A DNA stretch of 63,411 nt, filler included, from Collodictyon triciliatum (taxonomy: Eukaryota): assembly GCA_043381765.1 (NCBI GenBank). It is 7 parts of 7 records of this genome, joined end to end, with 100 filler letters (N's around TTAATTAATTAA, not from the genome) between each part and the next. Parts side by side here need not be neighbours in the genome. Positions count along the whole stretch, not along the records: positions 28,917 to 38,453 come from JBHJMP010002969.1; 6 more parts are not named here. One strand, given 5' to 3'. The position numbers and the translations under genes are program-made. Shown piece by piece: positions 4,479 through 60,200 of the stretch; position 1 is the first letter of the stretch; every line of letters starts with the position of its first letter. The notes under the pieces were generated by a model. That model had not been told where the DNA came from. It saw nothing but the letters and a program-made list of their open reading frames with translations, and made no database searches.

Positions 4479-4987
4479 AGGCATCTGCCCTGCCTACCGA
4501 CAACAAGGATTATTCCAAAGTTAAATATGAGGACCTAGAGAAGGGAGACTACATTATGTATGAAATGAAAGCACGGTCGTACAATGGCAAGGAGTACCCA
4601 GCCAAGATTAACCAGGGCTTTGTTTCAATGATTCAAAATGAAGTGGGTAATGCTTTATGGAAAGACCAGGATGGTAAAGTCTTGGGAATGACAAACTACG
4701 GAAAGACTTGGACTAATAACACCAAAGACATTGGTGACATATACAGGCAATCAAAGGAAGCTGCCCTTGAGAAAAAGAAAAAGGGTTTAGCCACGGTCAA
4801 AGAGAATGAACCCAAGCGCGCAGAGAAGCGCAAGATAGTTGCAGAAGCTGAAGCCTCTATGCAAAAGAAAGAAAAGGAAGCAGCCAAGGAATTAGAGAAT
4901 GACCCTGAAGCATTGGGCAAGCTTGCAAAGGAAATACAAAAAGAGTTGAAAAAAAAACCACGCTTTACCCTGCCTAAGGCCAAATAG
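4479..4987 (+). CDS. Orphan protein of the element (5' end in gap), Lys/Glu-rich C-terminus
   Basis: Open frame of ~168 codons from the gap edge to a stop overlapping the integrase 3' end (convergent overlap 4974-4987). Confidence 0.7.
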
Positions 4988-6386: not shown

Positions 6387-6422
6387 ATATTAACATAGAT
6401 TTTATTTTCGGATGTAAAACGC

Positions 6423-6444
6423 GATTTAAAGACATCTGTATATA
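6423..6444 (+). promoter_or_regulatory. Element-specific upstream motif, copy 1
   Basis: GATTTAAAGACATCTGTATATA, 8 nt before ATG 6453; 17/22 identical to the motif upstream of the TVpol-helicase gene. Confidence 0.55.
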
Positions 6445-6452
6445 ATTACTTA

Positions 6453-6767
6453 ATGAAGATGGATCATCATTTTACACAAGAAGAACTTAACCTGTTCAAT
6501 ACATTTTGCCTCCGCGAATTTTATATGTCGCTGGATACTGTGCGCACATTAGTATCGTCTGGCCTTAGAACAAAAGCACGAAATTCCCGCGGTTACAAAC
6601 GCCGCACACAAAGAAAAAAAGAAAAAGAAGCCATCGCTCAAATTATAGAACCTGAGCCCCCTCAGATTGACATCCAGATTGACTACACAGAATTTGATGA
6701 ACGCTTCCCTAAAGTTTACTCAACCGGAATGTCTTCTAGTGAATATTTCTCCGACAATTCAAAATAA
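6453..6767 (+). CDS. Small orphan protein of the element (basic, NLS-like centre)
   Basis: 104-aa ORF filling the space between integrase and helicase; preceded by the shared motif; RGYKRRTQRKKEKE basic patch. Confidence 0.65.
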   Translation: MKMDHHFTQEELNLFNTFCLREFYMSLDTVRTLVSSGLRTKARNSRGYKRRTQRKKEKEAIAQIIEPEPPQIDIQIDYTEFDERFPKVYSTGMSSSEYFSDNSK

Positions 6768-6792
6768 ATTGTGGCAATCACCACCATTCATT

Positions 6793-9066
6793 TTATTCTT
6801 TTGTGCGGGCTCTCTTGGCGCTGCTCACAATCTCATCAGTCACAAAGTAACTCTTCATATTGCTGTTATCTGTCATCATCTTGCGAACCTCTTTATAGTC
6901 GCATTCATACTTACCACGTTTAACAGTAATCGGGTAGGTAGATTTAAAATTAGTCCAGATTGGATTATTGATAAACGATTTAAACTCCAACACTTTGTGA
7001 TTCGGTAATCTCTTGGCGCTAAACATTTTGTAAATGTCATATATCTCATCGGCGTGATGGCAAAAAGGAGATGGGTCCTTTTCTTTATGCCATTGATACT
7101 TTGATTTAAACGTCAGCTCATATGTGTCCCAGATGTAATCATTCCAGTCAACAAACAAAAACTTGATAAACTGTTCCACGGGATGCATACTAGTTTCTGC
7201 CAACACTTCACACGTCTCACTTTTGGGAAAGTCATTAAAGTTGAAATTAGGATCATGTTCATTCATCAACACTTTTGTAAATATCTTGACAAACTCATCA
7301 TTGTAAGTTTCCTTTGTTAACTGTGATATCTCTTGTGGAGTCAGTCTATACTCTTTCACATCAAACACAGGGAAGCGTCTCATATTGTCCCTTTCAAATA
7401 CAATACCAATTTCTTTGTTGGTGTTGAGAATATAATTGACCGTGTTCTTTACTGGATACGGATTGTGGTACAACATACGCACGTGATTATCGTCACGGTC
7501 CACAGCTTCTTTAATGTCTCCTTGCAAACTCTTTGTCTTTGAAGCATCACTCTCCTCCAATATACACAACAGCTTATTAGCAATGTTCATATTCTTTTCT
7601 CCAAAGACCTCAGACAAACCGGAATGTGTGCTGCCGTATTGCCTGCCTAGAATTTGCTGCACAAACATCTTATAAAAGAAAGCAGTCTTACCTGTCCCTC
7701 CTTTGTTGTTGCGGAATATCATCATCTTGCCAATTCGATAATTGGGTTGATACAGAATTCTCGCTAGGTATTGAATCACATATTTCTCAGATTCGGGATT
7801 ACCCGCACAGAGATACTGAGACAATTGCTTATATGTCATACTACTCTTCCAAATAGTATAATCGGCTTCGCTCACGGTTTGAGCAATGTTAGTACAATAC
7901 CCTAGCCAGTCAATATATTGTTGTCCGTCAAATTCTGGGAAATACTTTTCGAATGCAAAGCCTTTGAAATGGTTGTAGGCCTTGGGGTTGTATTTGTTTG
8001 TAAATCCGTCATAGGGTATAAAGTCAAAGTACATAAAGTGTCGTTCAATTGGTAAATATAACTGCACAGTTTGCCAAAACCCATCTCCAAATCGTTGACA
8101 ATAAGATGGGGCAGACTTTATGTGTTCGGGCTTACGAGTAGGTTCATCTGGGTACTCGACAAACAAGTTGCCAAGTAACATAAAATGAGTCTTTGCAAAT
8201 TCTTCTATTGATGTGTCTGCATTGATAGTCTTAGGCTCTAATGTTGATTCAATAGGTTCAAAGCTAAATTCTACTTTGTACCCTGTCTGCTCTTCAATAT
8301 ATCTTGCCAGTTCAATATTCTTTTCAACTGGGTCGCAATACTGTTCCTTATTAACAAACAGACCATCAAAATTGTACATCCCAATCTCAACATTAGCTTG
8401 TTGTAATACACCAATCACTTTTTGCATTATTTTTGTTTCTTCTGTTTGCAGCAAATATGCCAAAAAACTATAAATGCGATTGTCGTGTTCTTCTAAACTA
8501 TCAAAATCGTCTTTGAATTTCAACTTGTGCCATTCAGGATATTTAGAATATGCCATAGCAGCCAGAATTTGCATTTCTTGCAGTTTGATACTAAACTCGT
8601 CATTACTAACAAGTGCTTGTCTTTTGCCACTAAACGCTAACATCAAATATCTTTTCTTGACTTCCTTGCGAGTCTTATGTGTTAACTCCATTCCCCTTTC
8701 AATTATACTATCACGGTTCTTTACATATTCCTCGATAGCTTCGTGATCTATATTCCATTTTTTTGCCAAAGCCAAAGACAGAGCATAATGGCAGTTGACA
8801 ATATCAAGGCTAGCATATTTATCCTTCAACAGATAATTACGAATGGGTTTATTAAGCATTCCCACTGAAATACCACAAGGGTAGAATCTACCAACTTTGA
8901 TTTTTCTTAAATGCTTAGCATAATCGTATTTGACTTTTAAGCCATCCTTCTCCATTTGCTTTTTCATAATACTTAGCTTCCCCTTTTCCTTTTTGCTGAT
9001 TATATCTTCTGGCTGCTTCAGCAGCTTTTTAATTGTAATGGGGTCGATTGATTCAACTAGTTCCAT
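6793..9066 (-). CDS. TVpol (family A-related primase-polymerase) fused to D5-like superfamily 3 helicase
   Basis: 757 aa; N-terminal GRFY, motif A YASLDIVNCH, motif B RKEVKKRYLMLAFSG, LQTEE, motif C YNFDGL; C-terminal Walker A NKGGTGKT, Walker B LCILEES, motif C ILNTN, RRF. Confidence 0.88.
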   Translation of the reverse strand: MELVESIDPITIKKLLKQPEDIISKKEKGKLSIMKKQMEKDGLKVKYDYAKHLRKIKVGRFYPCGISVGMLNKPIRNYLLKDKYASLDIVNCHYALSLALAKKWNIDHEAIEEYVKNRDSIIERGMELTHKTRKEVKKRYLMLAFSGKRQALVSNDEFSIKLQEMQILAAMAYSKYPEWHKLKFKDDFDSLEEHDNRIYSFLAYLLQTEETKIMQKVIGVLQQANVEIGMYNFDGLFVNKEQYCDPVEKNIELARYIEEQTGYKVEFSFEPIESTLEPKTINADTSIEEFAKTHFMLLGNLFVEYPDEPTRKPEHIKSAPSYCQRFGDGFWQTVQLYLPIERHFMYFDFIPYDGFTNKYNPKAYNHFKGFAFEKYFPEFDGQQYIDWLGYCTNIAQTVSEADYTIWKSSMTYKQLSQYLCAGNPESEKYVIQYLARILYQPNYRIGKMMIFRNNKGGTGKTAFFYKMFVQQILGRQYGSTHSGLSEVFGEKNMNIANKLLCILEESDASKTKSLQGDIKEAVDRDDNHVRMLYHNPYPVKNTVNYILNTNKEIGIVFERDNMRRFPVFDVKEYRLTPQEISQLTKETYNDEFVKIFTKVLMNEHDPNFNFNDFPKSETCEVLAETSMHPVEQFIKFLFVDWNDYIWDTYELTFKSKYQWHKEKDPSPFCHHADEIYDIYKMFSAKRLPNHKVLEFKSFINNPIWTNFKSTYPITVKRGKYECDYKEVRKMMTDNSNMKSYFVTDEIVSSAKRARTKE

Positions 9067-9087
9067 TTTCTTTAGTTCCTACTACCC

Positions 9088-9109
9088 TATAGACAAATGT
9101 TTTTAAGCC
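9088..9109 (-). promoter_or_regulatory. Element-specific upstream motif, copy 2
   Basis: GGCTTAAAAACATTTGTCTATA on the minus strand, 21 nt before ATG 9066. Confidence 0.55.
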
Positions 9110-9150
9110 AGCATTTACATAATAATAGGGGTATGCGTTTAACCCCTCTT

Positions 9151-9365
9151 ATAATGGGTAGGGTTGTGCATTGGTTAATTTCTCCTTACTCTTTTATATA
9201 AGGGGTATATATGTATAACTATATGTATATCCTTATATGTATAAGTATATATATATAAAGTTATAGGATACCTTACCCCATTTTATATGAAAAAGAGCTA
9301 AGGGTGTCCATATAAAAAGTTTTTAAGGGGGGGTTAGGAGGAGGGTACGTGTGCAACCCCATTAT
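9151..9365 (+). repeat. Long imperfect nested inverted repeat (hairpin)
   Basis: Nested arms ATAATGGG/CCCATTAT, GGGTTGTGCA/TGTGCAACCC, CCTTA/TAAGG, CTCTTTT-ATATAA/TTATAT-AAAAGAG, GGGGTA/TACCCC, TATAACT/AGTTATA, CTTATA/TATAAG, centred at ~9238. Confidence 0.75.
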
Positions 9366-9588
9366 TCAAAAATAACTGTAACAGGGCCACGAAGAATAGA
9401 GTAAGGAGTTTTCTTTTTCCTAGTCACCCTTTTCTTTTTTGTAAAGAGCAAGTCAAGAAACATCTGAGCCTCCTCAAAAGTCAAAAATACGTGTTGTTCA
9501 GAATTAGGAGTATATAGTCGTAACATATATTAAGACTAGATATTNNNNNNNNNNNNNNNNNNNNNNNNNNNNNNNNNNNNNNNNNNNN

Positions 9589-9600
9589 TTAATTAATTAA
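9589..9600. other. Artificial scaffold linker TTAATTAATTAA (also 19222, 28861, 38498, 48134, 59920)
   Basis: Identical 12-mer with stops in all six frames, always flanked by 44 N on each side. Confidence 0.97.
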
Positions 9601-10789
9601 NNNNNNNNNNNNNNNNNNNNNNNNNNNNNNNNNNNNNNNNNNNNTGTTTTTTGTTTTTTGTTTTTTGTTTTTTGTTTTTTGTTTTTTGTTTTTTTGTTTT
9701 TTTGTTTTTTGTTTTTTGATCCAGGTTCCGTGGACAACAAGCCGTTCGTGTGGCGGTGGCGGGTCTTCTCTGTTTTTGCAGGTGTTGATTACGAAGTTTG
9801 TTACAGCGTCTGTTGCGGATAGTTTCTTTGAATATCCAAGTCGCAGCCAAAAAAAAGGTGGATATCAGTTTTGTCTCTTTGTTTTTAAGGTTCGTTTTTG
9901 TTTATTGAAAGGCACGATAATTTTCGAATTCAAAACATGGTTTCCCCACACAAACAAAGGCGATGGAGTGTTCGCGCATCACAGTCGCAATCAGCCTTTC
10001 GCCTCTGCGCGGNNNNNNNNNNNNNNNNNNNNNNNNNNNNNNNNNNNNNNNNNNNNNNNNNNNNNNNNNNNNNNNNNNNNNNNNNNNNNNNNNNNNNNNN
10101 NNNNNNNNNNNNNNNNNNNNNNNNNNNNNNNNNNNNNNNNNNNNNNNNNNNNNNNNNNNNNNNNNNNNNNNNNNNNNNNNNNNNNNNNNNNNNNNNNNNN
10201 NNNNNNNNNNNNNNNNNNNNNNNNNNNNNNNNNNNNNNNNNNNNNNNNNNNNNNNNNNNNNNNNNNNNNNNNNNNNNNNNNNNNNNNNNNNNNNNNNNNN
10301 NNNNNNNNNNNNNNNNNNNNNNNNNNNNNNNNNNNNNNNNNNNNNNNNNNNNNNNNNNNNNNNNNNNNNNNNNNNNNNNNNNNNNNNNNNNNNNNNNNNN
10401 NNNNNNNNNNNNNNNNNNNNNNNNNNNNNNNNNNNNNNNNNNNNNNNNNNNNNNNNNNNNNNNNNNNNNNNNNNNNNNNNNNNNNNNNNNNNNNNNNNNN
10501 NNNNNNNNNNNNNNNNNNNNNNNNNNNNNNNNNNNNNNNNTATTTTTTTTAAAAGGAAGATGTCATAGAACTCCTTCCGTGGAAAAGAGGTATGACATCC
10601 AACATATATGTTACATAAATGTCCTTTCGTAAAAATATAAAATGGGTATTTTGTCGACAGTAGGCTCGCATGCAATGGTATAATAAACACATACGCAGAG
10701 TAAGGTATTAAAATAATAATAATAATATAATAGTGTGCACTTAAGCGACTTGTTTTCACATATTGGCCTAATGTAGAGGGAATATTAAC

Positions 10790-28816: not shown

Positions 28817-29160
28817 NNNNNNNNNNNNNNNNNNNNNNNNNNNNNNNNNNNNNNNNNNNNTTAATTAATTAANNNNNNNNNNNNNNNNNNNNNNNNNNNN
28901 NNNNNNNNNNNNNNNNACATACATACATACATACATACATACATACATACATACATACATACATACATACATACATACATACATACATACATACATACAT
29001 ACATACATACATACATACAGAAAAGCGAAATGCTATTTTCCCATCATAAAGGTGATAATACTTAATTTTTATAACTGAAAGCACCAATCGCAGGGTGTCT
29101 ATAACTAGTGAGCTACAATAATTGAAATGAGGAAAGAGAGGAATAGTATTGGGTTAGTCG

Positions 29161-32100
29161 CTAAGCTGACGGTTGCATTAGCTTCGACGGGCTGTCTGGA
29201 AGTTGCTCCATCGCGTCTAAAATTTTAAAAGGGTGAATTGAAGCGCATTTATGCAATAGCTCAAGAACTGTTCATTAGTTATGGCAAAAGTTCATGGTTC
29301 TGAATATTACACGGCAGAAAGCCATCTTACGACACAGTGTCATCAATTTTGATTTACGATAAAAGAAATACTTTGGACGTCCCCAAGAGAGAGCTGGCTT
29401 TTTTGCTGCATATCTTTCCAACAATTGAGGTTCGCCTGCATGTTGTTCGCTATTCCGTGAGCGTCCCCGGCATATTGTAACCATGACATAAACATGGGCA
29501 TCACAACGAACGACAGAAAACTAAACGGTATTATTTCCATTATTATGAAGCTGGCGAGTTTTGAATACTTCAATGAAACAATAATATTTGTGCATGAAGA
29601 GATCTAGGCTTGGTTGATAATCATATGCGCGTAGTGATTACCCAATTTGGCTTTTCGGTACATCTTCTGCCGATCGATCCATAAAAGGTGACTTTGGGAG
29701 GTGCAAAGAAGCTTCCCTGTCACCCTGTCGATATAAATCATGCATATTTACATATCTCAAACGGTAAATGGAGCAATCAAAAATAAGATGAACACAATCG
29801 GATATTCGTTTCAAGATACTTTTAAGCTACCATCAAACGCGTTAAATTCCTTTACCTGTCTATAAAATTCTTCTGTCACACGCATTGTCCACTGGCAGTG
29901 TACCCCAAATTCTTTAGCCATGTGTGAGAGGTCAGCACATTTTAAGGCCATTTGTAGCACAATTATTTTGTTTTCTCGCACGGCTAGGTCGATATCAGCT
30001 GTATAAATGATTGTCTCGTGTTAAATTGAAACATATGTTCAATAAACAGAGAGGATGACTATGAAATTTAATAAAAATGTCAAAAATTAAATCTGTCAAG
30101 ATATTGACTATATTATGTTATTGTATATATAAAAGATGCGTACTGCCTGTTGCGATTTTGGCTTTGAATTTCCCGACATAATCAAAATGATAACTCATAT
30201 CTGTAGATAGAACAAGCTCAATTACATTGTCTCGAATGAGCTTCCTCCTAGTGAATTGAGTTTTTTTTTTATCAGAAAAATAGTTGTATATATTAGGTCA
30301 AAAAAGTTGTGTATTCCCATAAAATCGTATGGATAGACTTGATATATTCTCACTCTTCACGCGGAACATTTTCTAGAAAATTATATCGCTCGTCCTTCAT
30401 TACAGAAAAGGCCTGGAATAAGTGGTAATTTTCCATGACCTAGAATAATTTTGTTTTTTCTCTTTACGGAAAAAGAGTCAAAATGCATAATCTTGCTCTC
30501 TTTTTTTTCTCAATTGAAGAAATGCACACAACAGCATCATATTAAACTTACAGATTTGTCATTATACATCAACGACTGTTGTGACTCGCTTTGAATATGG
30601 AAATTGTTGTTCATTCCCTATTATTTAATAGAAGAAAAGTTGTCACTTTTTGTATAGTTGAGCCATAAGATATACTTTTTTTTTAAAAAAAAATAATATA
30701 ATAACATAACTCGAAAATTCTGCTCGAATTATATAAAATCATATCATTATAATTGGGATAAAATATACTGTGTGGGCATAATCATGAATTATGGCTGCTA
30801 AGAATACAGACAAGACATCTATATCTGTGAGTAAGCTTGAAGGAGGATCAAGAAAAATAATCATCTAAGCTGTGTAATGGGATGTGGACGGAATATTGAG
30901 AGAAGAATATCGTGGAAGTCCAGCTGGACTATCATGTACAATAGTAAGGATACTCTCCAATTTTCTGAGAAGCAAGGAGATGCATTACATTAATCATGAC
31001 ATCTGCTGCATGGCAACTAGTGTGGTATGGGTTGTCCAGGTATCCAGATTCTATTTCACGTACAAACGAGAGGAACTTTGGAACATTCAAATTTAGTCGC
31101 TTCGCTAGCTGAAATCTCTCAAATATTGCAACAGCCGCAAACAGAAGAGGTTTATCTATTATCAGATAAATTGAAATGAAGGTTCAATTTTTCACTTTTA
31201 TTTAACACAAAAAAAGTAAAAGAAATCGCCATTTAAGGTATGGAAACGGCTGCATGTATCAGGATTATATATAAACTTCATTTTATTTTTATATTATTGT
31301 TTAATTCGTTGTTTATATGATTTATTACTTCCAGAATGCTCTGATAATTTGAAGATGTTGCCGTTCCAACTATCAAATAGATTTTTCATGGCACCTAATA
31401 GAACAGGTGACGAAGACCTATATAAGATTATTAAGTATGCAGTGAAGTGACCACGGTGGAAATGTTTCTTGATTCATATGCTATCTTAAGAGGGAAATTT
31501 TATGAGTCTTTTTCAAGTAATACACAAGAAAAGTACGTAAGGAAGGCGCGCAGGTCGTCAGTTTTGTATAGAGCTTGGTGGTTATAGACACATAAACTCA
31601 TGCTCCGATCTCGCCTGGATGGAAATATCCGAATATATTTTGGGATGTTTGGTTTGAAAAAAAAACTGTATTAGTGGGGAAATATCCATAGTCATTTATA
31701 TTTTATAAAATCATAATCGTTATTATCAAAATCATAATGACAAAAAATTAACCTTTTCGTCATTTTTTGGTAGATGTCATCCGAGTTGACTGACGTCCGG
31801 AATTCGGACCTAAGCCATGCCTTTGTGTTTAGATCCAATCCAGACTCGACAGGCGATTTCTTCAAGGCCACTGGAGCATGTAGATCATAGTCTGCGAGCA
31901 ATACGATAACGGACCGAATCCTGGACGCTGTAGTTTGGTCTAGAGGTAAAGTCCATTCGATTATTCAAATTATCTCGGCTATATAACTAGAGAATATTGA
32001 AGGAATCAAACTCGACATATCGTCCAGTAAAGAGTACCTTTAACATGGTTGGCTATGTCTCGTAAATTCCTCATCGCAAAATCCATGGGGGATTCAAAGT

Positions 32101-32792
32101 TCGTCAGACCTATAGTGGCTCCATCTCCGATGATTGTGTCTATTTTTCTATTTTGAAAAAAAGAAAGAAAATATACAAATATATGATGTTGATTATATTG
32201 AAGGTTGAGTCTATTAGAATTATAATGATGAATATTTTTATTCATCGTAGATTAAATGCGCTATAAATCCCAAAATATCAATACTTTGACTTAATTTCCA
32301 ATTGCTGGTCCGTCATAAATCGATATCTTTCAATAAATTCTATTCTCCTCGTCGTAAGAATTGGGCATATCGGACTCATAAAAAGAAATATAATTGATAA
32401 AGGTTTCCAAGAGTCTAATGAATGCTTACATTAGAAAAAAGGAGTATTTCATGATTCATACAAAATGATTTGGATAAAGAATGCAGTGTTTTTTTTTTAA
32501 AATTTTATTTATTTAAATACAAGATAGGAGATATGTTGCCATTACATCAATTACCTGTGAATTCTGAACAATCAGAGTAGCATTCAAAATTATGGAATAT
32601 AGGAACTAGGCAAATTGAAGAGATGGAATGTAGCGCAGAAACAACAACCTAGAAAGAAATGCACAAGACAAGAAAATGTATAACCCATAGTTTAAGTCAT
32701 AAAAATGTGACCATCTGACAGTTATTGTAAATAATCGCTAAACAGAGGATATAACCAGAAATTCCTTATGAATATGACTTGGAGCTAAATAT

Positions 32793-32877
<85 letters not shown>

Positions 32878-35061
32878 CATACAAATACATATACACGTAC
32901 ACATACACATATGTAACTTGATGATTATGAATTTAATGAAAATCAGTGAACCATTGCCATGTATCGGATTTGCAGCGCTGATGATAATACATTGTAAGCT
33001 ATCCATGTCAGAAGTACAGAGACAGGGTGTGTGAGTGATTCGAATACTGAAATGCTAACTACAGTAGCTCCAGCCATAGTGCAAGCGCCCTAATCAGAGG
33101 AGGTTTGCTAGTAAGTAAAACACATGCCCATACATAGCTGCACAGTGCCTTGCTGTGTTTACCTAAAACCTAATTCGGATTCATCATTCTGATAGAAAAC
33201 TGTCACTTACCAATATTGTTTCGTAAACTTCATGATGACGAACGTAAGTGTGTCTGGATAGTATATACAGCGAAACAAAAATTGGCAGGCACAATAGAAT
33301 AAGGGATGATGCGAGAGCTGACACGTGCAATTCTATTGAGAATTTTAATACAAAGTCATGCTATTTTGCCCTTCATTAATTCAAAATGTTTTTGGTAGTA
33401 TTAAATAAAAGATTTTTAGAAAAGACGGCAAAGTACCGAATTAGTTATAACGATATTGACAAAAGTGAAATTTACTAGATGTCAGCGGTACAGCAATGAA
33501 GATGGCAAGGTATATCCCAAGTAAACCTTGTAGGGAGCTATTCAACGCAAGGAAGTATCAAGAAATATTGGATATTGTTCCTTTTTTTTTTTAAAAAAAA
33601 AACCTACATGAATTTTCAAGCTGATATTGACGAGCAAGATATGATTTATCTCACCTTTTATTGTGTTGGTGTCTTAATTTTTGATAATGCTTGTTAAATT
33701 TTTCCTCTGATATTACATCATTAAATCTCAGGAGCGACTTGTTTCTAACAGAAATCATTTCAATCAAAGTTTAAGGTGAGGCATACTCATTTTTGTTCGA
33801 GAAAGTTCTATCAACACTGTAACCGCCTTTTTTTTAAAAAAAAAATATTTAAAAATTGACTTGAAATTCAGGCTGGTAAAATGAAACATGCATGATTGCA
33901 CTCACATTTGGGGTACAAAGTCATCTCCTTTGTCATTATCTGGAGCAAAAGCGATTGGTGTGATGATGGACTCATTTCTGGATGCCCTTCCGGGCAGTAG
34001 GTTATCAAAATTCAACGCCGAAAAGGACTTTGTAAACTGACCAATTCTTGTGGATGCTTTTCTTAGCCGTGGAGGTATGTTACTTTTTTTGGGGGATGAA
34101 AGGGAAATATCTGGGGCGTTCGAATCTGTTGCCGATGAAGCTTCAGCAGAAGGGCCGGCTCCATTGGTCATTCGAAATAGATTGTGGCTGGGCGGGTCGG
34201 GAAGCTTGGGCTTCTTTGCCGGAAAAGGGAGACCTTGTGTTTCAGATACAGATGGCGTCTGGTTCTCTGCCACTACTTCGTCGATAATAGTAAGGCCATG
34301 ACTGTCAGCAGGGGAACGAGGGTTGATAGGAACAAGGCGATGTGGAAAGCTAAATCGATGGATGTGGTTCTGGTTAACAAAGCATAATCTATTTTTTAAA
34401 ATTTTAGAAACAATTAGGAATATGAGCAATTTTTTCTCTTCGTTCGATACAAGGGAATCAGGCAAAGAAACACAATTTATTTAGTCGTCGATCTTTCAGC
34501 CCAGCCAGGATATTATGGCGCCTGAATTTATCGTGTTGATCTAATTCAACTCAATTTTCATGTAGTATGAATCTCAAGAGGATTACTTGTTTTTGGCTTT
34601 TCTCTCGTAATTCTTGTGGAGCACCTTCGAGACAGGAGGTAATGGGCTATGACATAAAAAATAAATGAGCAATTAGGCAAATGATCGACTATTGTTGAAG
34701 TAAGTTTTTGTAATATGATAATGTCTCGTCTCAAAATAGAGAATGCTCAAACTATAACAATTAAAAAAAAATTAGCAAATACGCCGTGTACTCATTATTA
34801 CTGTTTTTTATTATTATTCTTCCTTTCAATTTTGCACAGGGTGATGGGATGTTGGTTTTATTATGATGATTATTATGATTATTATTGTTATTGGCGTTGG
34901 TGTTAATTCATTCTCAGGAAATAATAAAATATAATTTAAAGGATAATCCATCTCCCCTGCTAAGCAAGGACACATGACACATTAATACTGTAAATAACAC
35001 ATCATCAAAATCCTTACCTTATGTCCGAAGTATCATTTGAAGACCTGTTCAAGTCGTCCAT
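29161..35061 (-). CDS. Class I cyclic-nucleotide phosphodiesterase with N-terminal transmembrane region (about 20 exons; ends approximate)
   Basis: YLDNPYHTSCHAADV, AAIIHDYAH, GMNNNF, MENYHL, LVLSTDM, LKCADLSH..W..RVTEEFYRQ|GDRE, SQIG; hydrophobic exons at 32550-33550. Confidence 0.9.
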
Positions 35062-35769
35062 GCCAGAAGGTCGGTGCGTCCGTTGGTTTTTTTTTTTTAT
35101 CAAAATTCTTCACCAAGCTTAAAAAAAAACCCCCTACCATTTGGTTTTACCAAAGGCGAAAAAACAAACAAGCAAACAAACAAACAAACAAACAAACAAA
35201 CAAACAAACAAACAAACAAACAAACAAACAAACAAACAAACAAACAAGAAACATGGTGAGCTAAAGACTGGATCACTAAATATTCTTGATATTTATGTTT
35301 ATTTTCTTTTCGACGCTATTCCTATAGTTATTATTGTGACTTTCATTTTGTTTCATTTTGTTTTGTTTTGTTCTGTTTGTTTTGTTTTGTTTTGTTTTGT
35401 TTTGTTTTGTTTTGTTTTGTTTTGTTTTGTTTTGTTTTGTTTTGTTTTGTTTTGTTTTGTTTTGTTTTGTTTTGTTTGTGGATCAGCGTGTAGTTCTTGG
35501 AGACTGAGTAGGTTGGCAGCCGATTAGGATAGTTCGAAAAGAAGGCTGTGGAACATGGCCTGGCGAGGTGTGTGGCAACAAACACAACGGCACAGAATCC
35601 ACGGCCTTGCGGTGAGGCAACCGGCGCATACTCCCCCATCCATATTTGTCCTGGCAAAATAAGTCGAATGTATTGAATATTCAGTAAAAAAAGCTCTTAA
35701 AAGATACATGTTCTTCAAAATTGTACATAATTATTAACAAAGAAAGGCACGTTCATAGCCAGCTGGCGA

Positions 35770-35956
35770 ACCGTTGAGGGGCAAGAGGGGTGCAATACAC
35801 TCTGTGTAAATAATACGAGTAGACAATCTTTCGCTTGGTAAACCTGGTGCTAGTATCTAAGGTCTCACCACTTTTTTCACAAAGATTGTGCAGTGGTGAA
35901 GGCTGTCAGGAAAGACCAGACAACCTGTTTTTTTAAGAGGAATGTGTATGCATTTT
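35770..35956 (-). ncRNA. Candidate Fanzor omegaRNA scaffold / transposon right end
   Basis: Directly 3' of the Fanzor stop; stems GGTTGTC/GACAGCC (G-U pair valid only on the minus strand), TCACCACT/AGTGGTGA enclosing CACAA/TTGTG, TACAC/GTGTA. Confidence 0.55.
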
Positions 35957-37098
35957 TTAAAGGATTGAAAGAACTTTCTTGGGTATATTTTTAGCGCTTT
36001 TAAAGTCCCTTGTCAAGAATACACTTTGCTTGCTTTCTGAGCGATTGCATTCTTTACACATGAGACATCTATACAACCTTTTTTTGTATTTCCTTTCGGT
36101 GTCATATATTCCAGTTCTTTTTCGCAGTTGCATCATGTCTTGGAGGTTCTAAATTCATCTACACTTACTGTCTCAAAACGTTTGGATAGTATTTTTCGTA
36201 ATCCTCTTCCAATTGCTGGCATGAAATGTTTCATCTGACATTTTCTGCTCCAGTCTCCATACGCCAGTACAACATCCTTGCCAAATGTCTTTTCGATTCG
36301 GTCCATAAACAACTATTCACTTCCTTTTGTATTAACATAATGTCTCCATCTCATCTTTAGAAAAGTAACTTGTTCAAAAAATCTGGATAGTTCTATCTGG
36401 TATCTTGATGTAATTGTTACATAACCTCGAAATTATTCATAATCGACGTGCATGAATTATGTTTACTCAGTTTTGTGTCTAAAACTATTAAAGATACTCT
36501 TGATGTCTCAAACTGCTGATTCTCTTCAAAAGTCCTGTGACCAAAAGAAATAGCATTTTGTAAATACGTTGCCATACATATCCCTGAATCATTGCACTTT
36601 TCTTTCTTTTTTCTTTCTTTTTTTTGTGCAAGAGTATTTTGTGATTTTTAAAGAGATTTGCTATCATGTCATGTTTGGTGTGCCGTGTAACGTGATTTCT
36701 TATCTTTCTCATCTACCATGTAAACCAAATTAAACTTGCCTGCGTCCACTCCAACTATTTTTTTGTCGCTAATAAAGATAACTGCTCTTCGGAAAGTTCA
36801 TCTATATAAACATATTCTTGAGTTGTTTGATTATATTGAATTTCGAGTTTGAAATACCTTTCTTTTCAATCAACGATGACACCACCAAGCCGTCTGTTTG
36901 TATCATGTATAGAAAATTGTAGTCCCTTCGATGAAAGACCCTCTTCTTCACTTCAAATAAATTATCCCATAGGTCTCTTTGCATCCGGATATATTCTTCA
37001 TTAATAATGTTTTATCCAGTTGATACTAATAGACCTATCAAACATGTCCTATCTAGAGTATTATGACATGGTATATTGTTAGTTCTTATATAGATTGG
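35957..37098 (-). pseudogene. Fanzor (Fanzor1-type, TnpB-derived nuclease), C-terminal half, disrupted
   Basis: IQTDG, RuvC-I IVGVDAGKFNLVYM, KMRWRHY, LAYGDWS, MKHFMPA..RGLRK, VDEFRTSKT*CNC...CKEC Zn finger, RuvC-III TRDFKSAKNI; several stops and frameshifts. Confidence 0.9.
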
Positions 37099-37363
37099 CC
37101 AGCATCTAGGGAACCCTCTAGAACGGTCTACCTGCCCCGTACTTAAGGGGATCCCTCCTACGCCTAGCCGCACCTACCTTTTACCCTTTCTCCTAGTCAG
37201 AACAATATGCATTTTAGTCTTTTGAGATCCCGATATCCTCTCCTTGCAATGTAGTTGTTGTTTTTTTTTTAATAAATGGAATAGTTGACTAATGGACTTC
37301 CGTTTTATTAAAATTGAAAGTTCAGTAATTTTCTAAAGGAAAAAATAAAACAAATACTTTCAG

Positions 37364-38453
37364 ATGAAGAAAAGAAAACGCCTTGAGTCTGAGAATCTAA
37401 AGTCTGTAAAACCAGACTATCGAAATGTGAAAATACTAAAGTCGATTGTAAAGAATGTGGATGACTATGACAAAATAAACAATATGGTTTAATTGTGTCA
37501 TAATTTGGTTACCGACACTTATCTGTTTGCAAGATGTTACATATTGTAATCAAAACAGCTCCCAACAATCGATGAAATGGAGAGTTTTTTGTATGCTTTA
37601 AAAACTGTCGAAACAGTTTCACAAGATAGACCCGCAAGTTTAAAAAAAACCAGATATGAGAGAAGACATGATGACTTTTTATCTCAATGATTTTCGATTA
37701 CTTTTGTCCCGAGAAGAACGCTTTCCGTCGGTTAGACTCTCTCATGTATTACTGTACTTGGCGAAGCGAATGTTAACAGCCTATCATAATAAAATTAAGG
37801 AACATTTTGTAAAGAGGTTACTGCGCTTTATAAATCAAACAGTTCCTAAAGATGAGAATATTACAGAAGCTATTCAAAATGTAGAGTTACGAAATTAAAA
37901 AAAAAAGCCATCTTCAAGAAACTCGACATACCGGAACAATATAAAGGATGGGCTACAATCCATTTGCATCGTATCATCCCAGCGACATTGTAAATGGTAA
38001 CGAATATGATGTCAAAGTCAATCCAAATAATTACACCATGTTTGATTTACAGGAATCGTATTTTTTGAGGACGTTGGAACCAAACTTTTTCAACCAATCT
38101 CTATAAGAACTAACAATATACCATGTCACATTACACTAGATAGGACATGTTTGATAGGTCTATTAGCATTATCTGGAAAATCATTATTAATGGATAATAT
38201 CAGGATGCAAAGAGACCTATGGGATAAGTTCTTTGAAATGAAGAAGAGGGTCTTTCGTCAAAGAGATTAGAATATTGAATACACGATACAAACAAACAGC
38301 TTGGCGTTGTCATTTTGTTAGAGAAGAAAGGTATTTCAAACTCGAAATTCAATATAATCAAACAACTCAAGAATATGTTTATATAGATGAACTTTCCGAA
38401 GAGCAGTTATCTTTATTAGCGACAAAAAAAAATTTGGGGTGGACACAGGCAAG
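37364..38453 (+). pseudogene. Second Fanzor copy, N-terminus to RuvC-I, disrupted, cut by scaffold end
   Basis: MKKRKR (NLS-like)...LKSIVK...TYLFARCYIL...MLTAYHNKIKEHFVKRLLRFIN...YDVKVNP...LFQPISIRTNNIPCHITLD...GVDTGK; 38094-38453 is a diverged inverted copy of ~36736-37098. Confidence 0.88.
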
Positions 38454-38553
38454 NNNNNNNNNNNNNNNNNNNNNNNNNNNNNNNNNNNNNNNNNNNNTTA
38501 ATTAATTAANNNNNNNNNNNNNNNNNNNNNNNNNNNNNNNNNNNNNNNNNNNN

Positions 38554-48089: not shown

Positions 48090-48692
48090 NNNNNNNNNNN
48101 NNNNNNNNNNNNNNNNNNNNNNNNNNNNNNNNNTTAATTAATTAANNNNNNNNNNNNNNNNNNNNNNNNNNNNNNNNNNNNNNNNNNNNAACAAAAAGGA
48201 GGTTTCTGGTCATTAAGGAGGAATGTAAAAAAAAAAAAAAAAAGGAAAGAAAAGAAGCTTGTTGCGCACTTGCCGTGCAAAGCATATCTTGATTGTCTAT
48301 CCTTCCCTTCCAGCTTTCGCAAATTGCTCTACCTTAACTTTAAGGATAATTTTGCTTTGTCATTCCCTGCCATCAAAGATCAACACAGAGCAACAAAGAA
48401 AATAAGTGCATGTGGCTTGTGGCTGTCTTCTTCAATCCGAGGGCGACCCCGTCAATACATCCTCCTTCTTTCTTTCATCCCTCTTTCTTCTATATATTCT
48501 CGCGACACATCTATTTTTTTCAATCTTTCTTTCTTTCTTTCCCTATGATTCACACCGTCACTTTTTGTCTCCATCCACAAAGCCAACACCCACAACGCCC
48601 GCTTCCATCACAGCACCCACCAAAAAGGCGACAAGAAGGAAAAAAAAACACGACGTTTTCATACCTCTTCTGGAGTTTATTGACAATGAGCG

Positions 48693-49295
48693 CTATTCGA
48701 GGGCGGAGAGCCCATCTCTCATCTTTGCGGCTGTGTCCTGAATCTTGACGAGCGTGTCGTATCTGCGAAGAAGCGCTTCGGGCGTGGACTGCGAAGAGTC
48801 GGCTATCTTGACGACCAGCTGCTTGCACAGCTTCATCAGCTCCTCCATGGGCAACTGCACAAGTTCCTGGATCTCTGGGGTTTCAGGCGTCTGCGATGGC
48901 GGCTCAGCTGCTCTGGCTGGACTTTCGCATGCTCTTTCCGGTCCGTCGTCAGCGATTGGGGTTGACGCGCCGCGACTGTTTCCTTTGCGTCCGCGGAATG
49001 TGGTGTTGAGGGCTATGGCCAGCGCAGCCTCTGCAATGACGAGGGCAAAGCGGCTGATTAATTGCTTGTCATGACCAGCACTGCGGGTTCGTGGCGATCA
49101 GGCCTCTGCGCAGGTTTCCCTTTGTATGCCAGGGAATATGCGGTCTGGTTGCGTTTTTCTTTGAATATATATGCGTGTGTGTGTTTGTGTGTGTGGAAGG
49201 ATAAGAGGAGTGAAAAATGTTGAGTCTCTAGCACGGTGTTCGCTACCTGACACTGTGTTTGACAAGTTTTGCTGGGCGGATTCCTCGGCTGACAT
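48693..49295 (-). CDS. Small hypothetical protein (about 130 aa, 2 exons) downstream of tRNA-Gly; second copy starts at 50689
   Basis: MSAEESAQQNLSNTVS, phase-1 intron GTAGCG...TTGCAG, then EAALAIAL...ELMKLCKQLVVKI...GLSALE*. Confidence 0.55.
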
Positions 49296-49394: not shown

Positions 49395-49465
49395 TGCATT
49401 GTCCGGGAATCGAACCCGGGTCGACAGCTTGGAAGGCTATCATGCTGCCACTACACCAACAATGC
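49395..49465 (-). tRNA. tRNA-Gly (TCC), copy 1
   Basis: GCATTGT...ACAATGC-A acceptor, loop CT TCC AA, GGGTTCGATTCCC, T5 terminator. Confidence 0.95.
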
Positions 49466-49862: not shown

Positions 49863-50785
49863 ACTATAATATAAGAAAATTGTTCTATATTAGTTTTGTA
49901 TCGGTATATATCATATATATTTCTCTTTCATTTTATAAATTATGTTAATGTTTTTATCATTTTATATTTTCTCATTTGTCCTTATATTTGTAGTTTTATA
50001 TAATTTGTTTTCTCATATTGATTCTATTCNNNNNNNNNNNNNNNNNNNNNNNNNNNNNNNNNNNNNNNNNNNNNNNNNNNNNNNNNNNNNNNNNNNNNNN
50101 NNNNNNNNNNNNNNNNNNNNNNNNNNNNNNNNNNNNNNNNNNNNNNNNNNNNNNNNNNNNNNNNNNNNNNNNNNNNNNNNNNNNNNNNNNNNNNNNNNNN
50201 NNNNNNNNNNNNNNNNNNNNNNNNNNNNNNNNNNNNNNNNNNNNNNNNNNNNNNNNNNNNNNNNNNNNNNNNNNNNNNNNNNNNNNNNNNNNNNNNNNNN
50301 NNNNNNNNNNNNNNNNNNNNNNNNNNNNNNNNNNNNNNNNNNGTCCGTCGTCAGCGATTGGGGTTGACGCGCCGCGACTGTTTCCTTTGCGTCCGCGGAA
50401 TGTGGTGTTGAGGGCTATGGCCAGCGCAGCCTCTGCAATGATGAGGGCAAAGCGGCTGATTAATTGCTTGTCATGACCAGCACTGCGGGTTCGTGGCGAT
50501 CAGGCCTCTGCGCAGGTTTCCCTTTGTCTGCCAGGGAATATGCGGTCTGGTTGCGTTTTTCTTTGAATATATATGCGTGTGTGTGTGTGGAAGGATAAGA
50601 GGAGTGAGAAATGTTGTGTCTCTAGCAGGGTGTTCGCTACCTGACACTGTGTTTGACAAGTTTTGCTGGGCGGATTCCTCGGCTGACATCTTGAAGCGGC
50701 TGGTAAAAAAAAAGGAAGGCTTTTGCTGTGAGTTTCTCGATTCTGATCTGTGCACAAAGCGGAAGAAATATCCACCAAAAAGGAT

Positions 50786-50856
50786 TGCATTGTCCGGGAA
50801 TCGAACCCGGGTCGACAGCTTGGAAGGCTATCATGCTGCCACTACACCAACAATGC
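50786..50856 (-). tRNA. tRNA-Gly (TCC), copy 2
   Basis: Same sequence as copy 1. Confidence 0.95.
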
Positions 50857-58785: not shown

Positions 58786-60200
58786 GGGTGATGTTTGTTA
58801 GCTTTAACATCACTTTCACTTATCATTTATCTTTTTTTTCTCTTCGAACCTATCACTTTTCAAGTCCTTTGTATTTGTCTATTCTAATGTAATAATTAAA
58901 CTTATCTTTGCGACGGTACTTTTATCTCCCACAACAACAAATAAAACCATGACAAACATTGTAATCATCCGCACACGAAGACGCAGAATCAGCCCCTTCC
59001 TTCTGATTGCAGCTTATGTGTATGAATGTGAACATGAATGACACGGCTTTGCTTCAATCCATTAAAATACAAAGCCTCGATGACCTAAGCAAAGAGGTGA
59101 ATAAATAATGGATTTCACATGCTAGTGCCATTCTTCTCTATCCATACGGCGGAAATACAATCTGGCCAGGTACAGTTGCGAGTTGGAGTTCAAATGATTC
59201 CTTTTGCGCATCTCTATAGATAACGATTTGGTTTGTCTGCCCGCACAACCACTCCATTGTCGTCTTGTAAGATGGCAAACCTCCTTTCTTTTCACTGCAG
59301 TGTGCTTCATCATCTGGCATCGGCCAGCTCACAAGCGTCAGGATTGTGTATTTGGTGTTTATGAATCAAAGGAAAAGAAAAGAGAAGAGGAAAATACGGG
59401 TCTGTGTGACATGACAAAACACCCGAACAAAGTCAAGCAATCGCTTCCCTCTTATGACGATCTCACATTTCTTCCCCCCTTTTTTTTCTTTTTTTTCTTC
59501 TTTTTAGTAAAAATCCACTCTATTGCTTAGACATCCTCTCTATTGAACCCTTCTTGCTCTTTTTCAAGTACAGAGATAACTAGGCTTGTGACCGCAACGA
59601 AGCAACAAAGCAGACAGAACAAACCGCTCGCGTATCTCTCACCTATAGGCGAAGCCCTGAACAACGAGAAAAAAAACTGGAGAGGGTGAGGAACCTTTGA
59701 CACAAGTTTCAAGCGAGCCAAGGATGCCCCCTAAAGCTAAAGACGCGAACAAAGCTGCACGAGCAGATGCCAGCCACCTCCCGCCGGTCGGGGCCTCACA
59801 AGGAAAATTCAAAACGACCCAGGTGCTTGAAAACCCAGCCCTTTTTTTTTTTTTTTTCGTGAAGAGACAATAACANNNNNNNNNNNNNNNNNNNNNNNNN
59901 NNNNNNNNNNNNNNNNNNNTTAATTAATTAANNNNNNNNNNNNNNNNNNNNNNNNNNNNNNNNNNNNNNNNNNNNACAAAAAAAACAAAAAAACAAAAAA
60001 ACAAAAAAACAAAAAAACAAAAAAACAAAAAAACAAAAAAACAAAAAAACAAAAAAACAAAAAACAAAAAACAAAAAAACAAAAAACAAAAAACAAAAAA
60101 AATTATTTACGAGTGAAGAGAAGAATGAAAAAGCAGTATACAACGTTGTCCTGTTACCTTAGGGAAACTAATCTTAAATCTCAGGACAGATTGAAATAAA

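What the first reader, a model, noticed from the sequence alone, without database searches (positions are those of the whole stretch)
35957..38453. Fanzor locus: two divergent inverted copies jointly covering the whole RNA-guided nuclease
Absent from the ORF track because of stops and frameshifts. The plus copy gives the NLS-like N-terminus through RuvC-I; the minus copy gives the mid-region through RuvC-I (D), GDWS with Gly at the canonical RuvC-II position, the alternative Glu in VDEFRTSK, the Zn finger and RuvC-III (RD). This rearranged active site is the described Fanzor signature. The ~360-bp overlap is diverged, so these are two insertions, implying a multi-copy family from which an active enzyme could be reconstructed in a probably unsampled flagellate lineage. 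No transposase is seen (non-autonomous).
Basis: partly seen in the sequence, partly recalled or inferred. Interest (0 to 1): 0.8.

Follow-up and report, generated by a model that had tools for sequence, protein, structure and literature searches.

The report
Two dead Fanzor1 nuclease gene copies
Two broken, head-to-head copies of a jumping gene that once encoded an RNA-guided DNA cutter (Fanzor1) sit on one small contig of a eukaryote draft genome; the reading is correct, but such relics are an ordinary, already described kind of thing.

Summary
An intact 648-aa metagenome protein (P0001) maps onto both strands. The minus copy covers residues 245-642 (37098 to 35892) with 6 stops and 7 frameshifts. 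The plus copy covers residues 1-367 (37364 to 38453) with 3 stops and 8 frameshifts.

It is a Fanzor1. A profile of 18 relatives matches the three solved Fanzor1 proteins at E 1.7e-83, 5.1e-80 and 3.5e-65.

Three corrections:
- The plus copy stops at 38453 because the contig ends at an artificial N/TTAATTAATTAA linker, not for a biological reason.
- A 107-bp identical tract inside an overlap that is otherwise about 15% diverged points to gene conversion, so two independent insertions are likely but not shown.
- The lineage is not unsampled: two public runs hold 327 and 330 contig fragments of the family.

The nearest relatives outside its own subfamily are intact genes in about 2.4-kb elements with terminal inverted repeats on giant-virus contigs. 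No guide RNA, inverted ends or transposase could be shown in the window. Both copies are dead. This is a new member of a known kind, of low interest.

The parts
35820..37098 (-). Minus copy: a 5'-truncated Fanzor1 pseudogene. Coding remnant at 37098..35892 (P0001 aa 245-642), plus about 70 nt of 3' tail. The left limit is approximate.
   Evidence: 240 of 389 residues identical, 6 stops, 7 frameshifts; family contigs cover down to bin 35792-35887 and none cover 35600-35791. A loose end at 37098 shows that fuller copies continue where this one stops.
37233..38453 (+). Plus copy: about 130 nt of leader (37233-37363), then a Fanzor1 pseudogene from ATG 37364 to 38453 (P0001 aa 1-367), cut by the contig end.
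   Evidence: 212 of 354 residues identical, 3 stops, 8 frameshifts; cover starts in bin 37232-37327, with a loose end at 37233. N run from 38454.
37099..37232 (.). 134-bp spacer between the two 5' ends. It is not part of the repeat family.
   Evidence: bin 37136-37231 has no cover in X2, X3 or X4. One X1 contig (151 nt, 4 differences) spans 37046-37196, so the junction is real; no other copy in the window.
36744..36746 (-). RuvC-I catalytic Asp codon of the minus copy, in GVDAGK (the family has DPG).
   Evidence: DPG in 17 of 18 full-length relatives; the column aligns with SpuFz1 D383.
36256..36258 (-). Gly codon at the canonical RuvC-II glutamate position (YGDWS).
   Evidence: Gly in 18 of 18 relatives. 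Jiang 2023 (PMC10530073, passages read): the canonical Glu is replaced by Pro or Gly in Fanzors. That this Gly column is the canonical Glu position rests on my recalled TnpB motif; no TnpB was aligned here.
36154..36156 (-). Alternative RuvC-II Glu codon (VDEFRTSK).
   Evidence: Glu in 18 of 18 relatives; aligns with SpuFz1 E541. Yoon 2023 (PMC10711439, passages read): the alternative Glu lies six residues before the zinc finger.
36133..36135 (-). TGA stop in place of the first zinc-finger Cys.
   Evidence: aligned with C562 of P0001. Cys in 17 of 18 relatives.
36005..36007 (-). RuvC-III Asp codon (TRDFKSAKNI).
   Evidence: RD in 18 of 18 relatives; aligns with SpuFz1 D606.
36758..36864 (.). 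107-bp tract identical to 38324-38430 (inverted), inside an overlap that is otherwise 15% diverged. It holds both frameshifts that the two copies share.
   Evidence: P about 2e-4 for such a run at the mean divergence; shared frameshifts at 36822/38366 and 36772/38425.
35868..35901 (-). Hairpin (CACCACU / AGUGGUG) at the 3' end of the coding remnant. It is only a candidate remnant of the guide-RNA scaffold.
   Evidence: present in the fold, but the region's z-score is only -1.47; matches the helix of the viral model at 1.7 bits, E 1.1, which is not significant.
38454..38553 (.). Artificial contig joint: N44-TTAATTAATTAA-N44.
   Evidence: one of six identical joints in the window.

Best explanation
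These are two decayed, non-functional remnants of a small mobile element that carried one gene, a Fanzor1 RNA-guided DNA endonuclease. They lie head to head on a 9.5-kb nuclear contig of a eukaryote.

SHOWN:
- Both are homologous and collinear with intact Fanzor1 proteins.
- Both are broken many times.
- The minus copy has lost its first 244 codons.
- The plus copy is cut by the contig end.
- The family is present as hundreds of diverged fragments in two public runs.
- The repeated unit is little more than the gene: about 130 nt upstream and at most about 100 nt downstream.

INFERRED from characterised Fanzor1 and TnpB: in the live ancestor, the protein (N-terminal basic cluster MKKRKR for nuclear import; RuvC triad Asp, alternative Glu, Asp; zinc finger) bound a guide RNA transcribed from the 3' end of its own element. 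It cut double-stranded DNA next to a short motif where the guide pairs, and this helped the element to persist. Movement depended on a transposase supplied in trans or on another route.

Today neither copy can make the protein. The minus copy has a stop at the first zinc-finger cysteine, and each copy has lost the Pro of DPG.

I lean 60:40 to two separate old insertions, later partly homogenised by gene conversion between the inverted arms, over a local inverted duplication of one dead copy.
For: - The 59-aa piece hits Parasitella Fanzor1 in the PDB at E 2.7e-5.
- That piece found the intact relative P0001 at 78% identity over the piece.
- P0001 hits the three solved Fanzor1 proteins at 2.1e-28, 2.7e-24 and 3.7e-23. 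The 18-sequence profile hits them at 1.7e-83, 5.1e-80 and 3.5e-65, collinear end to end with SpuFz1.
- The catalytic columns match D383, E541 and D606 of SpuFz1 (residue numbers from Saito 2023, PMC10432273, passages read).
- There are 9 stops and 15 frameshifts in all. The stops use all three codons opposite K, R, K, Q, C, L and Y, plus two in inserted codons with no aligned residue. Only 4 of the 15 frameshift sites adjoin runs of 6 or more identical bases.
- An independent lake-metagenome contig (X1, 151 nt, 0 differences) covers 36649-36799, which includes one stop and two frameshift sites. Another spans the truncation junction.
- Multi-copy: 327, 330 and 151 contigs were laid in X2, X3 and X4. 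Cover is zero at 35600-35791 and 37136-37231.
- All 29 viral-contig relatives whose ORFs were delimited are intact at 575-634 aa, and all 80 loci kept have an open frame of more than 400 aa that holds the YG[DNS]WS motif.
- 18 of 39 of these loci have roughly 30-bp terminal inverted repeats. Element length is about 2.4 kb in 11 of those 18.
- Their 3' ends carry a helix with compensatory changes in 8 of 15 pairs.
Against: - No guide-RNA homologue could be shown in the window. The covariance model built from 37 viral 3' ends gave only 1.7-4.8 bits at the expected place, and its best hits elsewhere in the window were at chance level.
- Fold z-scores are -1.47 and -1.64 on the two strands.
- Rfam gave nothing.
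- No terminal inverted repeat was found between the plus copy's leader and the minus copy's tail, so the element ends are not defined to the base.
- The closest intact protein is only 60-62% identical, so no live member of this exact family has been seen.
- The two shared frameshifts could mean that both copies descend from one dead progenitor.
Confidence: 0.9

Rival explanations
1. One dead copy was duplicated locally in inverted orientation. The two arms then diverged, so this would be one insertion and not two.
For: The copies share two frameshifts relative to P0001. They are adjacent and head to head. Both lack the far 5' part seen in viral relatives, whose left end lies 415-1380 nt before the ATG.
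Against: Both shared frameshifts lie inside the 107-bp identical tract, which conversion explains. Outside it, the lesions in the overlap are private: a stop at aa 273 in the minus copy only, and a stop at aa 304 and a frameshift after aa 318 in the plus copy only. The break points are asymmetric: the minus copy starts at aa 245, while the plus copy has its ATG and leader.
Confidence: 0.35
2. The genes are alive, and the breaks are sequencing errors, an unusual genetic code, programmed frameshifts or small introns.
For: This is a draft assembly with many gaps. Four frameshift sites adjoin homopolymer runs.
Against: There are 24 lesions in about 2.3 kb. All three stop codons occur, opposite seven different residues. 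An exon of a ribosomal protein on another contig reads open in the standard code. The alignment to P0001 has no long insertions that could be introns. An independent contig reproduces three lesions exactly.
Confidence: 0.02
3. The inverted repeat is an assembly chimera at a contig end.
For: It abuts the contig end. A 107-bp tract is identical in both arms.
Against: The arms differ at 39 of 364 columns. A contig from an unrelated lake metagenome spans 37046-37196 with 4 differences, and another matches 36649-36799 exactly.
Confidence: 0.03
4. The copies arrived as part of integrated giant-virus DNA and are not a cellular transposon family.
For: The nearest named clusters are 92-100% viral, mostly Nucleocytoviricota. 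392 of 409 matched stretches in the viral-contig collection encode relatives. Another contig of the window carries a virus-like helicase and an integrase.
Against: The repeated unit is only the gene with short flanks. The contig has low ORF density and many microsatellites. P0001 is only 42-47% identical to the best viral ORFs and sits on a long branch of an unrooted tree.
Confidence: 0.05

Closest known systems
SPu-1 / SpuFz1 of Spizellomyces punctatus (Bao & Jurka 2013, PMC3627910; Saito et al. 2023, PMC10432273)
   Same: A roughly 2.1-kb element whose only gene is a Fanzor1 of about 630-650 aa, with no transposase. It is multi-copy, with full and partial copies: 17 full-length copies, nine of them intact, in 2013; 42 loci, 19 full-length, in 2023 (passages read). 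The protein is collinear end to end with the family profile at E 5.1e-80, and the catalytic D, E and D columns align.
   Different: SPu-1 has 30-33-bp inverted ends, and many of its copies are intact. Here both copies are dead, no inverted ends were found and no guide RNA was shown. Sequence similarity is remote: E 3.7e-23 for P0001 alone.
Fanzor1 elements on giant-virus (Nucleocytoviricota) contigs, Pfam PF26935 / DUF8286 as labelled by the Atlas
   Same: These are the closest sequenced relatives outside the window's own subfamily, at 38-47% identity over about 600 aa. They share the N-terminal basic cluster, DPG, YG[DN]WS, the alternative Glu, the zinc finger and RD.
   Different: They are intact, at 575-634 aa. 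18 of 39 are bounded by roughly 30-bp inverted repeats. They carry a conserved 3' RNA-like helix with compensatory changes that the window's copy does not match significantly.
GtFz1 of Guillardia theta and PpFz1 of Parasitella parasitica (solved structures 9cer, 9cf0; Xu et al. 2024, PMC11423790, seen in a search listing only)
   Same: Best single-sequence PDB hits of P0001, at 2.1e-28 and 2.7e-24. [quoted passage not shown]
   Different: They are larger proteins with extra insertions, and they are functional.
CMe-1A, an old Fanzor1 family of Cyanidioschyzon merolae (Bao & Jurka 2013)
   Same: An old family about 80% identical to its consensus and classed as non-autonomous (passage read).
   Different: Some CMe-1A copies are still intact. 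The host is different. No sequence comparison was made here.

Membership tests
Fanzor1 (eukaryotic/viral TnpB-like RNA-guided nuclease) | Significant, collinear sequence similarity to characterised Fanzor1 proteins | tested here: met
   the window piece against PpFz1, E 2.7e-5. P0001 and the family profile against PpFz1, SpuFz1 and GtFz1, down to 1.7e-83. SpuFz1 is matched over profile positions 4-609.
Fanzor1 | RuvC-I Asp in a DPG motif (Yoon 2023) | tested here: inconclusive
   17 of 18 relatives have DPG. In the window the Asp is kept but the Pro is lost: DAG in the minus copy, DTG in the plus copy. This fits decay.
Fanzor1 | Canonical RuvC-II Glu replaced by Gly or Pro (Jiang 2023) | tested here: met
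   YGDWS in the window, and Gly in 18 of 18 relatives. That this column equals the canonical Glu position in TnpB rests on my recalled TnpB motif. No TnpB was aligned here.
Fanzor1 | Alternative Glu six residues before the first CxxC of the zinc finger | tested here: met
   the window has E-FRTSKT-(stop)-CNC and P0001 has E-FRTSKL-C-CN-C. The Glu aligns with SpuFz1 E541. In the window, the first Cys codon is a TGA stop.
Fanzor1 | RuvC-III Asp after the zinc finger | tested here: met
   TRDFKSAKNI in the window. The Asp aligns with SpuFz1 D606.
Fanzor1 | Guide RNA (omega RNA) encoded at the 3' end of the element | tested here: inconclusive
   Viral relatives show a covarying helix. In the window there is only a hairpin, with 1.7 bits against that model, a fold z-score of -1.47 and no Rfam match.
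Fanzor1 | RNA-guided DNA cleavage activity | not testable with these tools
   This needs biochemistry. The window's copies cannot encode a full protein.
Tc1/mariner-like or SPu-1-like element with terminal inverted repeats | Terminal inverted repeats, with a TA target duplication | tested here: not met
   no inverted match between the leader 37200-37364 and the tail 35760-35960 (score 26, AT-rich only). The ends may be truncated, so absence from the family as a whole is not shown. 18 of 39 viral relatives do have such repeats.
Fanzor2 / IS607-type | Compact TnpB-like size and association with a serine recombinase | tested here: not met
   The relatives are 575-680 aa, with the long N-terminal half typical of Fanzor1. 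All significant PDB hits are Fanzor1. No recombinase ORF lies on the contig.

The most novel reading that the evidence does not exclude
The window's copies belong to an uncharacterised, high-copy cellular branch of the giant-virus-type Fanzor1 lineage (DUF8286) in a freshwater microbial eukaryote. That branch would have been exchanged between giant viruses and their hosts. Its intact members (P0001-like, 648 aa) and their 3' RNA would form a new, compact RNA-guided nuclease system. The head-to-head pairing of dead copies may reflect a preference of such elements to insert next to each other.
Probability: 0.3. Interest if true: 0.4.

Novelty: new member of a known kind. Interest (0 to 1): 0.25.

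Why it matters
It matters little by itself. The locus is a correct example of how decayed RNA-guided nuclease genes hide from ORF callers. It adds one more eukaryote lineage to the known range of Fanzor1.

The side result is more useful. The nearest relatives are hundreds of intact elements on giant-virus contigs, of which 18 of 39 tested show inverted ends, typically about 2.4 kb apart. They have a sharply conserved 3' end and a covarying RNA helix. That set is a ready source for studying Fanzor1 guide RNAs and traffic between viruses and hosts. The window's own copies are too decayed to serve as an enzyme source.

Tried and rejected
- Pfam on eight single ORF pieces: no relevant family.
- Whole genome of the window: none is held, so no genome-wide copy census was possible.
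- Second PDB search, with the zinc-finger piece alone: only chance hits.
- Scan of metagenome contigs with P0001: one locus at 21% identity, useless for close 3' ends.
- Scan of viral contigs with patterns specific to P0001: none. The alignment-based scan then worked.
- Cluster look-up: no organism names, and the contigs are 2.1-3.5 kb.
- Sequencing runs: 7 listed, all with a small word share of 0.05-0.07, and no RNA holder listed. Whether X2 and X3 are RNA is only a guess by the tool, so nothing is said here about expression.
- Rfam, on the whole window at gathering thresholds: only three tRNAs. On the locus at E up to 1: nothing.
- Folding of 35790-36010: z-scores of -1.47 (minus strand) and -1.64 (plus strand), not distinctive.
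- Covariance model R1 from 37 viral 3' ends. Over the whole window there were 46 hits at E 0.25-10, none at the expected place. In the targeted 351-nt search the best scores were 4.8 and 1.7 bits. My by-eye resemblance of the window's 3' tail to the viral end motif (about half the positions) is therefore not evidence.
- Search for terminal inverted repeats in the window: none.
- Other repeats of the spacer or the left flank in the window: none.
- Homologue search with the 84-aa N-terminal piece among longer proteins: none scored. This is weak evidence, because even P0001 was not recovered.
- Pfam on presumed host exons of the contig: nothing. My recalled reading of one exon as a phosphodiesterase is unverified and is not used.
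- Alternative code, introns and programmed frameshifts: rejected (see rival explanations).
- Tree. Fifty rows were used. Before the tree I dropped 48 near-identical viral rows (90% identity or more) and the two fragments P0002 and P0008. P0001 sits on a long branch and the tree is unrooted, so no direction of transfer can be read from it.
- Earlier notes of this scan: none for this genome and none by sequence.
Full report
WHAT THE WINDOW IS. The 63,411-base window is not one natural stretch of DNA. It holds 19 runs of N. Six junctions have the form N44-TTAATTAATTAA-N44, at 9545-9644, 19178-19277, 28817-28916, 38454-38553, 48090-48189 and 59876-59975. These are artificial joints between contigs of about 10 kb. 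The finding lies on the contig 28917-38453 and touches its right end. The dynein-like gene that starts at about 38765 belongs to another contig and says nothing about this locus. No whole genome is held for the window.

THE OBSERVATION. An inverted repeat joins 36735-37098 to 38094-38453. Aligned, it spans 364 columns with 39 differences, 90.3% identity without gaps and K2P 0.104. Single ORF pieces gave nothing in Pfam. The 59-aa piece at 36133-36312 (minus strand) hit Parasitella parasitica Fanzor1 in the PDB at E 2.7e-5. Among longer proteins, the same piece recovered intact relatives of 596-648 aa that are 58-78% identical over the piece. Against one representative per 50% cluster of about 15 billion proteins, it found 525 representatives at E 1e-3 or better and 54 at 1e-10 or better.

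The best relative, P0001 (648 aa), maps on both strands. My frameshift-aware alignment gives the following:
- Minus copy: aa 245-642 at 37098..35892. 240 of 389 aligned residues are identical. There are six stops: TAA opposite K273, TGA opposite R389, TAA opposite K462, TAG opposite Q502, TGA opposite C562, and TAA in an inserted codon after aa 619. There are seven frameshifts.
- Plus copy: aa 1-367 at 37364..38453. 212 of 354 aligned residues are identical. There are three stops: TAA opposite L44, TAA in an inserted codon after aa 62, and TAG opposite Y304. There are eight frameshifts.

No further copy lies in the window.

WHAT IT IS. P0001 matches the three solved Fanzor1 proteins: Guillardia theta at 2.1e-28, Parasitella parasitica at 2.7e-24 and Spizellomyces punctatus at 3.7e-23. 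A profile of 18 full-length relatives (alignment A1) matches them at 3.5e-65, 1.7e-83 and 5.1e-80. The next hit has an E-value of only 0.008. The match to SpuFz1 runs over profile positions 4-609.

In the fusion chain, residues 777, 935 and 1000 correspond to SpuFz1 D383, E541 and D606, the metal-binding residues named by Saito et al. 2023 (PMC10432273, passages read). These fall on the family's invariant D, E and D columns.

Motifs in the 18 relatives:
- DPG in 17 of 18.
- Gly in YG[DNS]WS in 18 of 18.
- The alternative Glu in 18 of 18.
- The first CxxC in 17 of 18.
- RD in 18 of 18.

These are the published Fanzor signatures. The canonical RuvC-II Glu is replaced by Pro or Gly, with a compensating Glu elsewhere (Jiang et al. 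2023, PMC10530073, passages read). Fanzors have DPG and the alternative Glu six residues before the zinc finger (Yoon et al. 2023, PMC10711439, passages read).

The window shows GVDAGK (minus copy) and GVDTGK (plus copy), then YGDWS, VDEFRTSKT-stop-CNC and TRDFKSAKNI. The new details are that the TGA stop sits exactly on the first zinc-finger cysteine and that both copies have lost the Pro of DPG. The N-terminus MKKRKR is a basic cluster like those of most relatives. Whether it acts as a nuclear import signal was not tested here.

ARE THE BREAKS REAL? All three stop codons occur, opposite seven different residues, so no recoding fits. An exon of ribosomal protein uL2 on another contig is open in the standard code. 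Only 4 of the 15 frameshift sites adjoin runs of six or more identical bases. The alignment has no long insertion that could be an intron. A contig from a lake metagenome (run X1) matches 36649-36799 without a single difference. That interval holds one stop and two frameshift sites. X1 holds only 7% of the stretch's sampled words, so it is unlikely to be the source of the assembly. Another X1 contig spans 37046-37196, across the truncation point of the minus copy, with 4 differences. The lesions and the junction are therefore real.

THE FAMILY AND THE UNIT THAT REPEATS. I laid the contigs of four public runs on 35600-38453 at 80% likeness or more. This gave 327 contigs in X2, 330 in X3, 151 in X4 and 3 in X1.
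- In X2 the likeness bands were 26 contigs at 99% or more, 69 at 95-99%, 119 at 90-95% and 113 below 90%.
- Cover runs over 35792-37135 and 37232-38453. It is zero at 35600-35791 and, in X2, X3 and X4, at 37136-37231.
- The repeated unit is therefore the gene plus about 130 nt upstream and at most about 100 nt downstream.
- The family has many diverged copies in the two coded organisms.
- The 134 bp between the two 5' ends is not part of the family.
- Where the window has the stop at 35957-35959, the other copies read CAA on the minus strand.
- At the frameshift site near 36078, several other copies lack two letters.

The lineage is thus not unsampled. Contigs that encode the closest proteins are 2.1-3.5 kb long, which fits a small repeat. 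No ORF of 70 aa or more between 28917 and 35900 looks like a transposase.

ONE INSERTION OR TWO? Within the overlap, one stop in each copy and one frameshift in the plus copy are private. Two frameshifts are shared. Both shared ones lie in a 107-bp tract of complete identity, 36758-36864 against 38324-38430. The rest of the overlap differs at 39 of 257 columns, or 15%. A run of that length has a probability of about 2e-4 at the mean divergence. The simplest reading is gene conversion between the inverted arms; read collapse in the assembly is the alternative. The shared lesions therefore do not prove a common dead ancestor. I lean to two old insertions, but a local inverted duplication keeps about one chance in three.

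RELATIVES ON GIANT-VIRUS CONTIGS. The protein atlas places P0001 next to clusters labelled PF26935 (DUF8286). Their recorded taxa are 92-100% viral, mostly Nucleocytoviricota. This is a lead, not a test. The test was a scan of the viral-contig collection with the family alignment:
- 392 of 409 matched stretches encode relatives. Of these, 80 loci were kept, at 38-47% identity to P0001 over about 600 residues.
- All 80 have an open frame of more than 400 aa that carries the YG[DNS]WS motif. The 29 whose ORFs I delimited are 575-634 aa.
- P0012, one of the metagenome relatives, is 88% identical to the ORF of L002.
- In 16 closely related loci, conservation continues for about 85-90 nt past the stop and then falls to background.
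- 40 of the 80 loci carry a sharply conserved terminal motif 40-130 nt after the stop.
- 18 of 39 testable loci carry its reverse complement upstream of the ATG. This is a terminal inverted repeat of about 30 bp. The direct-orientation control scored in 1 of 39. Element length is about 2.4 kb in 11 of the 18.
- The 3' ends fold into a helix in which 8 of 15 predicted pairs show compensatory changes; for example, one pair is UA in 14, CG in 12 and AU in 9 of 37 sequences. In L004 the ORF stops earlier while the nucleotide conservation continues.

This is what a guide-RNA scaffold overlapping the end of the gene should look like. It matches the published architecture of Fanzor and TnpB elements.

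In a quick, unrooted tree of 50 rows, P0001 sits on a long branch next to a set that includes the viral loci L002-L006. The support is 94 and unstarred. Before building the tree I removed 48 near-identical viral rows and two fragments. No direction of transfer can be inferred.

WHAT COULD NOT BE SHOWN IN THE WINDOW.
- A covariance model built from 37 viral 3' ends found no significant match at the 3' end of the minus copy. Across the whole window there were 46 chance-level hits, the best at E 0.25 and elsewhere. In a targeted 351-nt search it scored 4.8 and 1.7 bits. The second of these aligns the hairpin at 35868-35901 to the model's helix.
- Folding energies are not distinctive.
- Rfam gave nothing.
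- No inverted repeat links the plus copy's leader to the minus copy's tail.

The guide RNA and the element ends are thus inferred from relatives and not seen here. Both copies may also lack their outer 5' part.

HOW IT WORKED. Shown: homology, motif content, decay, copy number and the extent of the repeat unit. Inferred from SpuFz1 and TnpB work (Saito 2023; Jiang 2023): the ancestor encoded a nuclear protein that bound an RNA made from its own 3' end. It cleaved DNA beside a short motif at sites paired by the RNA's 3' guide. The cleavage helped the element persist. Transposition itself needed another enzyme. Neither copy in the window can do any of this now.

COMPARISON AND NOVELTY. A roughly 2.1-kb element whose only gene is a Fanzor1 of about 633 aa, present in many full, partial and dead copies, is the prototype SPu-1 (Bao & Jurka 2013, PMC3627910, passages read; Saito 2023 counts 42 loci, 19 of them full-length). 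[quoted passage not shown] Fanzor1 in giant viruses has been known since 2013. Earlier notes of this scan describe head-to-head dead Fanzor1 copies in a red alga, and Fanzor1 elements with inverted ends in giant viruses. I used these as leads only, and checked the inverted-end claim on my own viral loci.

The locus is a new member of a known kind. I could not open the supplementary tables of the survey papers, which may already list this subfamily.

VERDICT. Interest is low.

Noticed in passing
window 9545-9644, 19178-19277, 28817-28916, 38454-38553, 48090-48189, 59876-59975: The window is a chain of contigs of about 10 kb joined by N44-TTAATTAATTAA-N44 linkers. Gene neighbourhoods across these joints are artificial. 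GC content differs strongly between the pieces, from 24% to 54% in 2-kb bins.
   Followed up: partly
window 4974-9078, minus strand (contig 1-9544): Two long intact ORFs lie side by side. One is 761 aa with DUF5906 (PF19263, E 6e-12), a family I recall as the D5-type primase-helicase region. The other is 471 aa with a retroviral-type integrase core (rve, E 1.8e-6, below Pfam's cut-off). This looks like part of an integrated Polinton- or virophage-like element.
   Followed up: partly
loci L002-L081 (viral contigs): Hundreds of intact Fanzor1 elements lie on giant-virus contigs, with a near-invariant 3' terminal motif. 18 of 39 have roughly 30-bp inverted ends. A 3' helix shows compensatory changes in 8 of 15 pairs. 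Together these look like a well-defined guide-RNA scaffold.
   Followed up: partly
L038, within 6801-6982: One viral element has an extra insert of about 52 nt, GC-rich and hairpin-like, just before the conserved 3' terminal motif. The other 36 aligned sequences lack it.
   Followed up: no
window 48693-49097 and 49996-50499 (minus strand); tRNAs at 49395-49465 and 50786-50856: Two ORFs share nearly the same first 50 residues. Two tRNA hits have identical scores and lie about 1.39 kb apart. This suggests a tandem duplication on that contig.
   Followed up: no
window 35159-35258 and 35341-35483: A (CAAA)n-type microsatellite and a (TTTTG)n microsatellite sit next to each other just left of the minus copy. 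They are roughly complementary, at about 71% over 49 nt.
   Followed up: no
window 35820-35849 against a loose end of run X4: In another copy of the family, a 5-bp stem in the 3' tail is kept while its 4-nt loop differs (GAAA in the window, UUUC in the other copy). This is a single by-eye comparison and was not tested.
   Followed up: no
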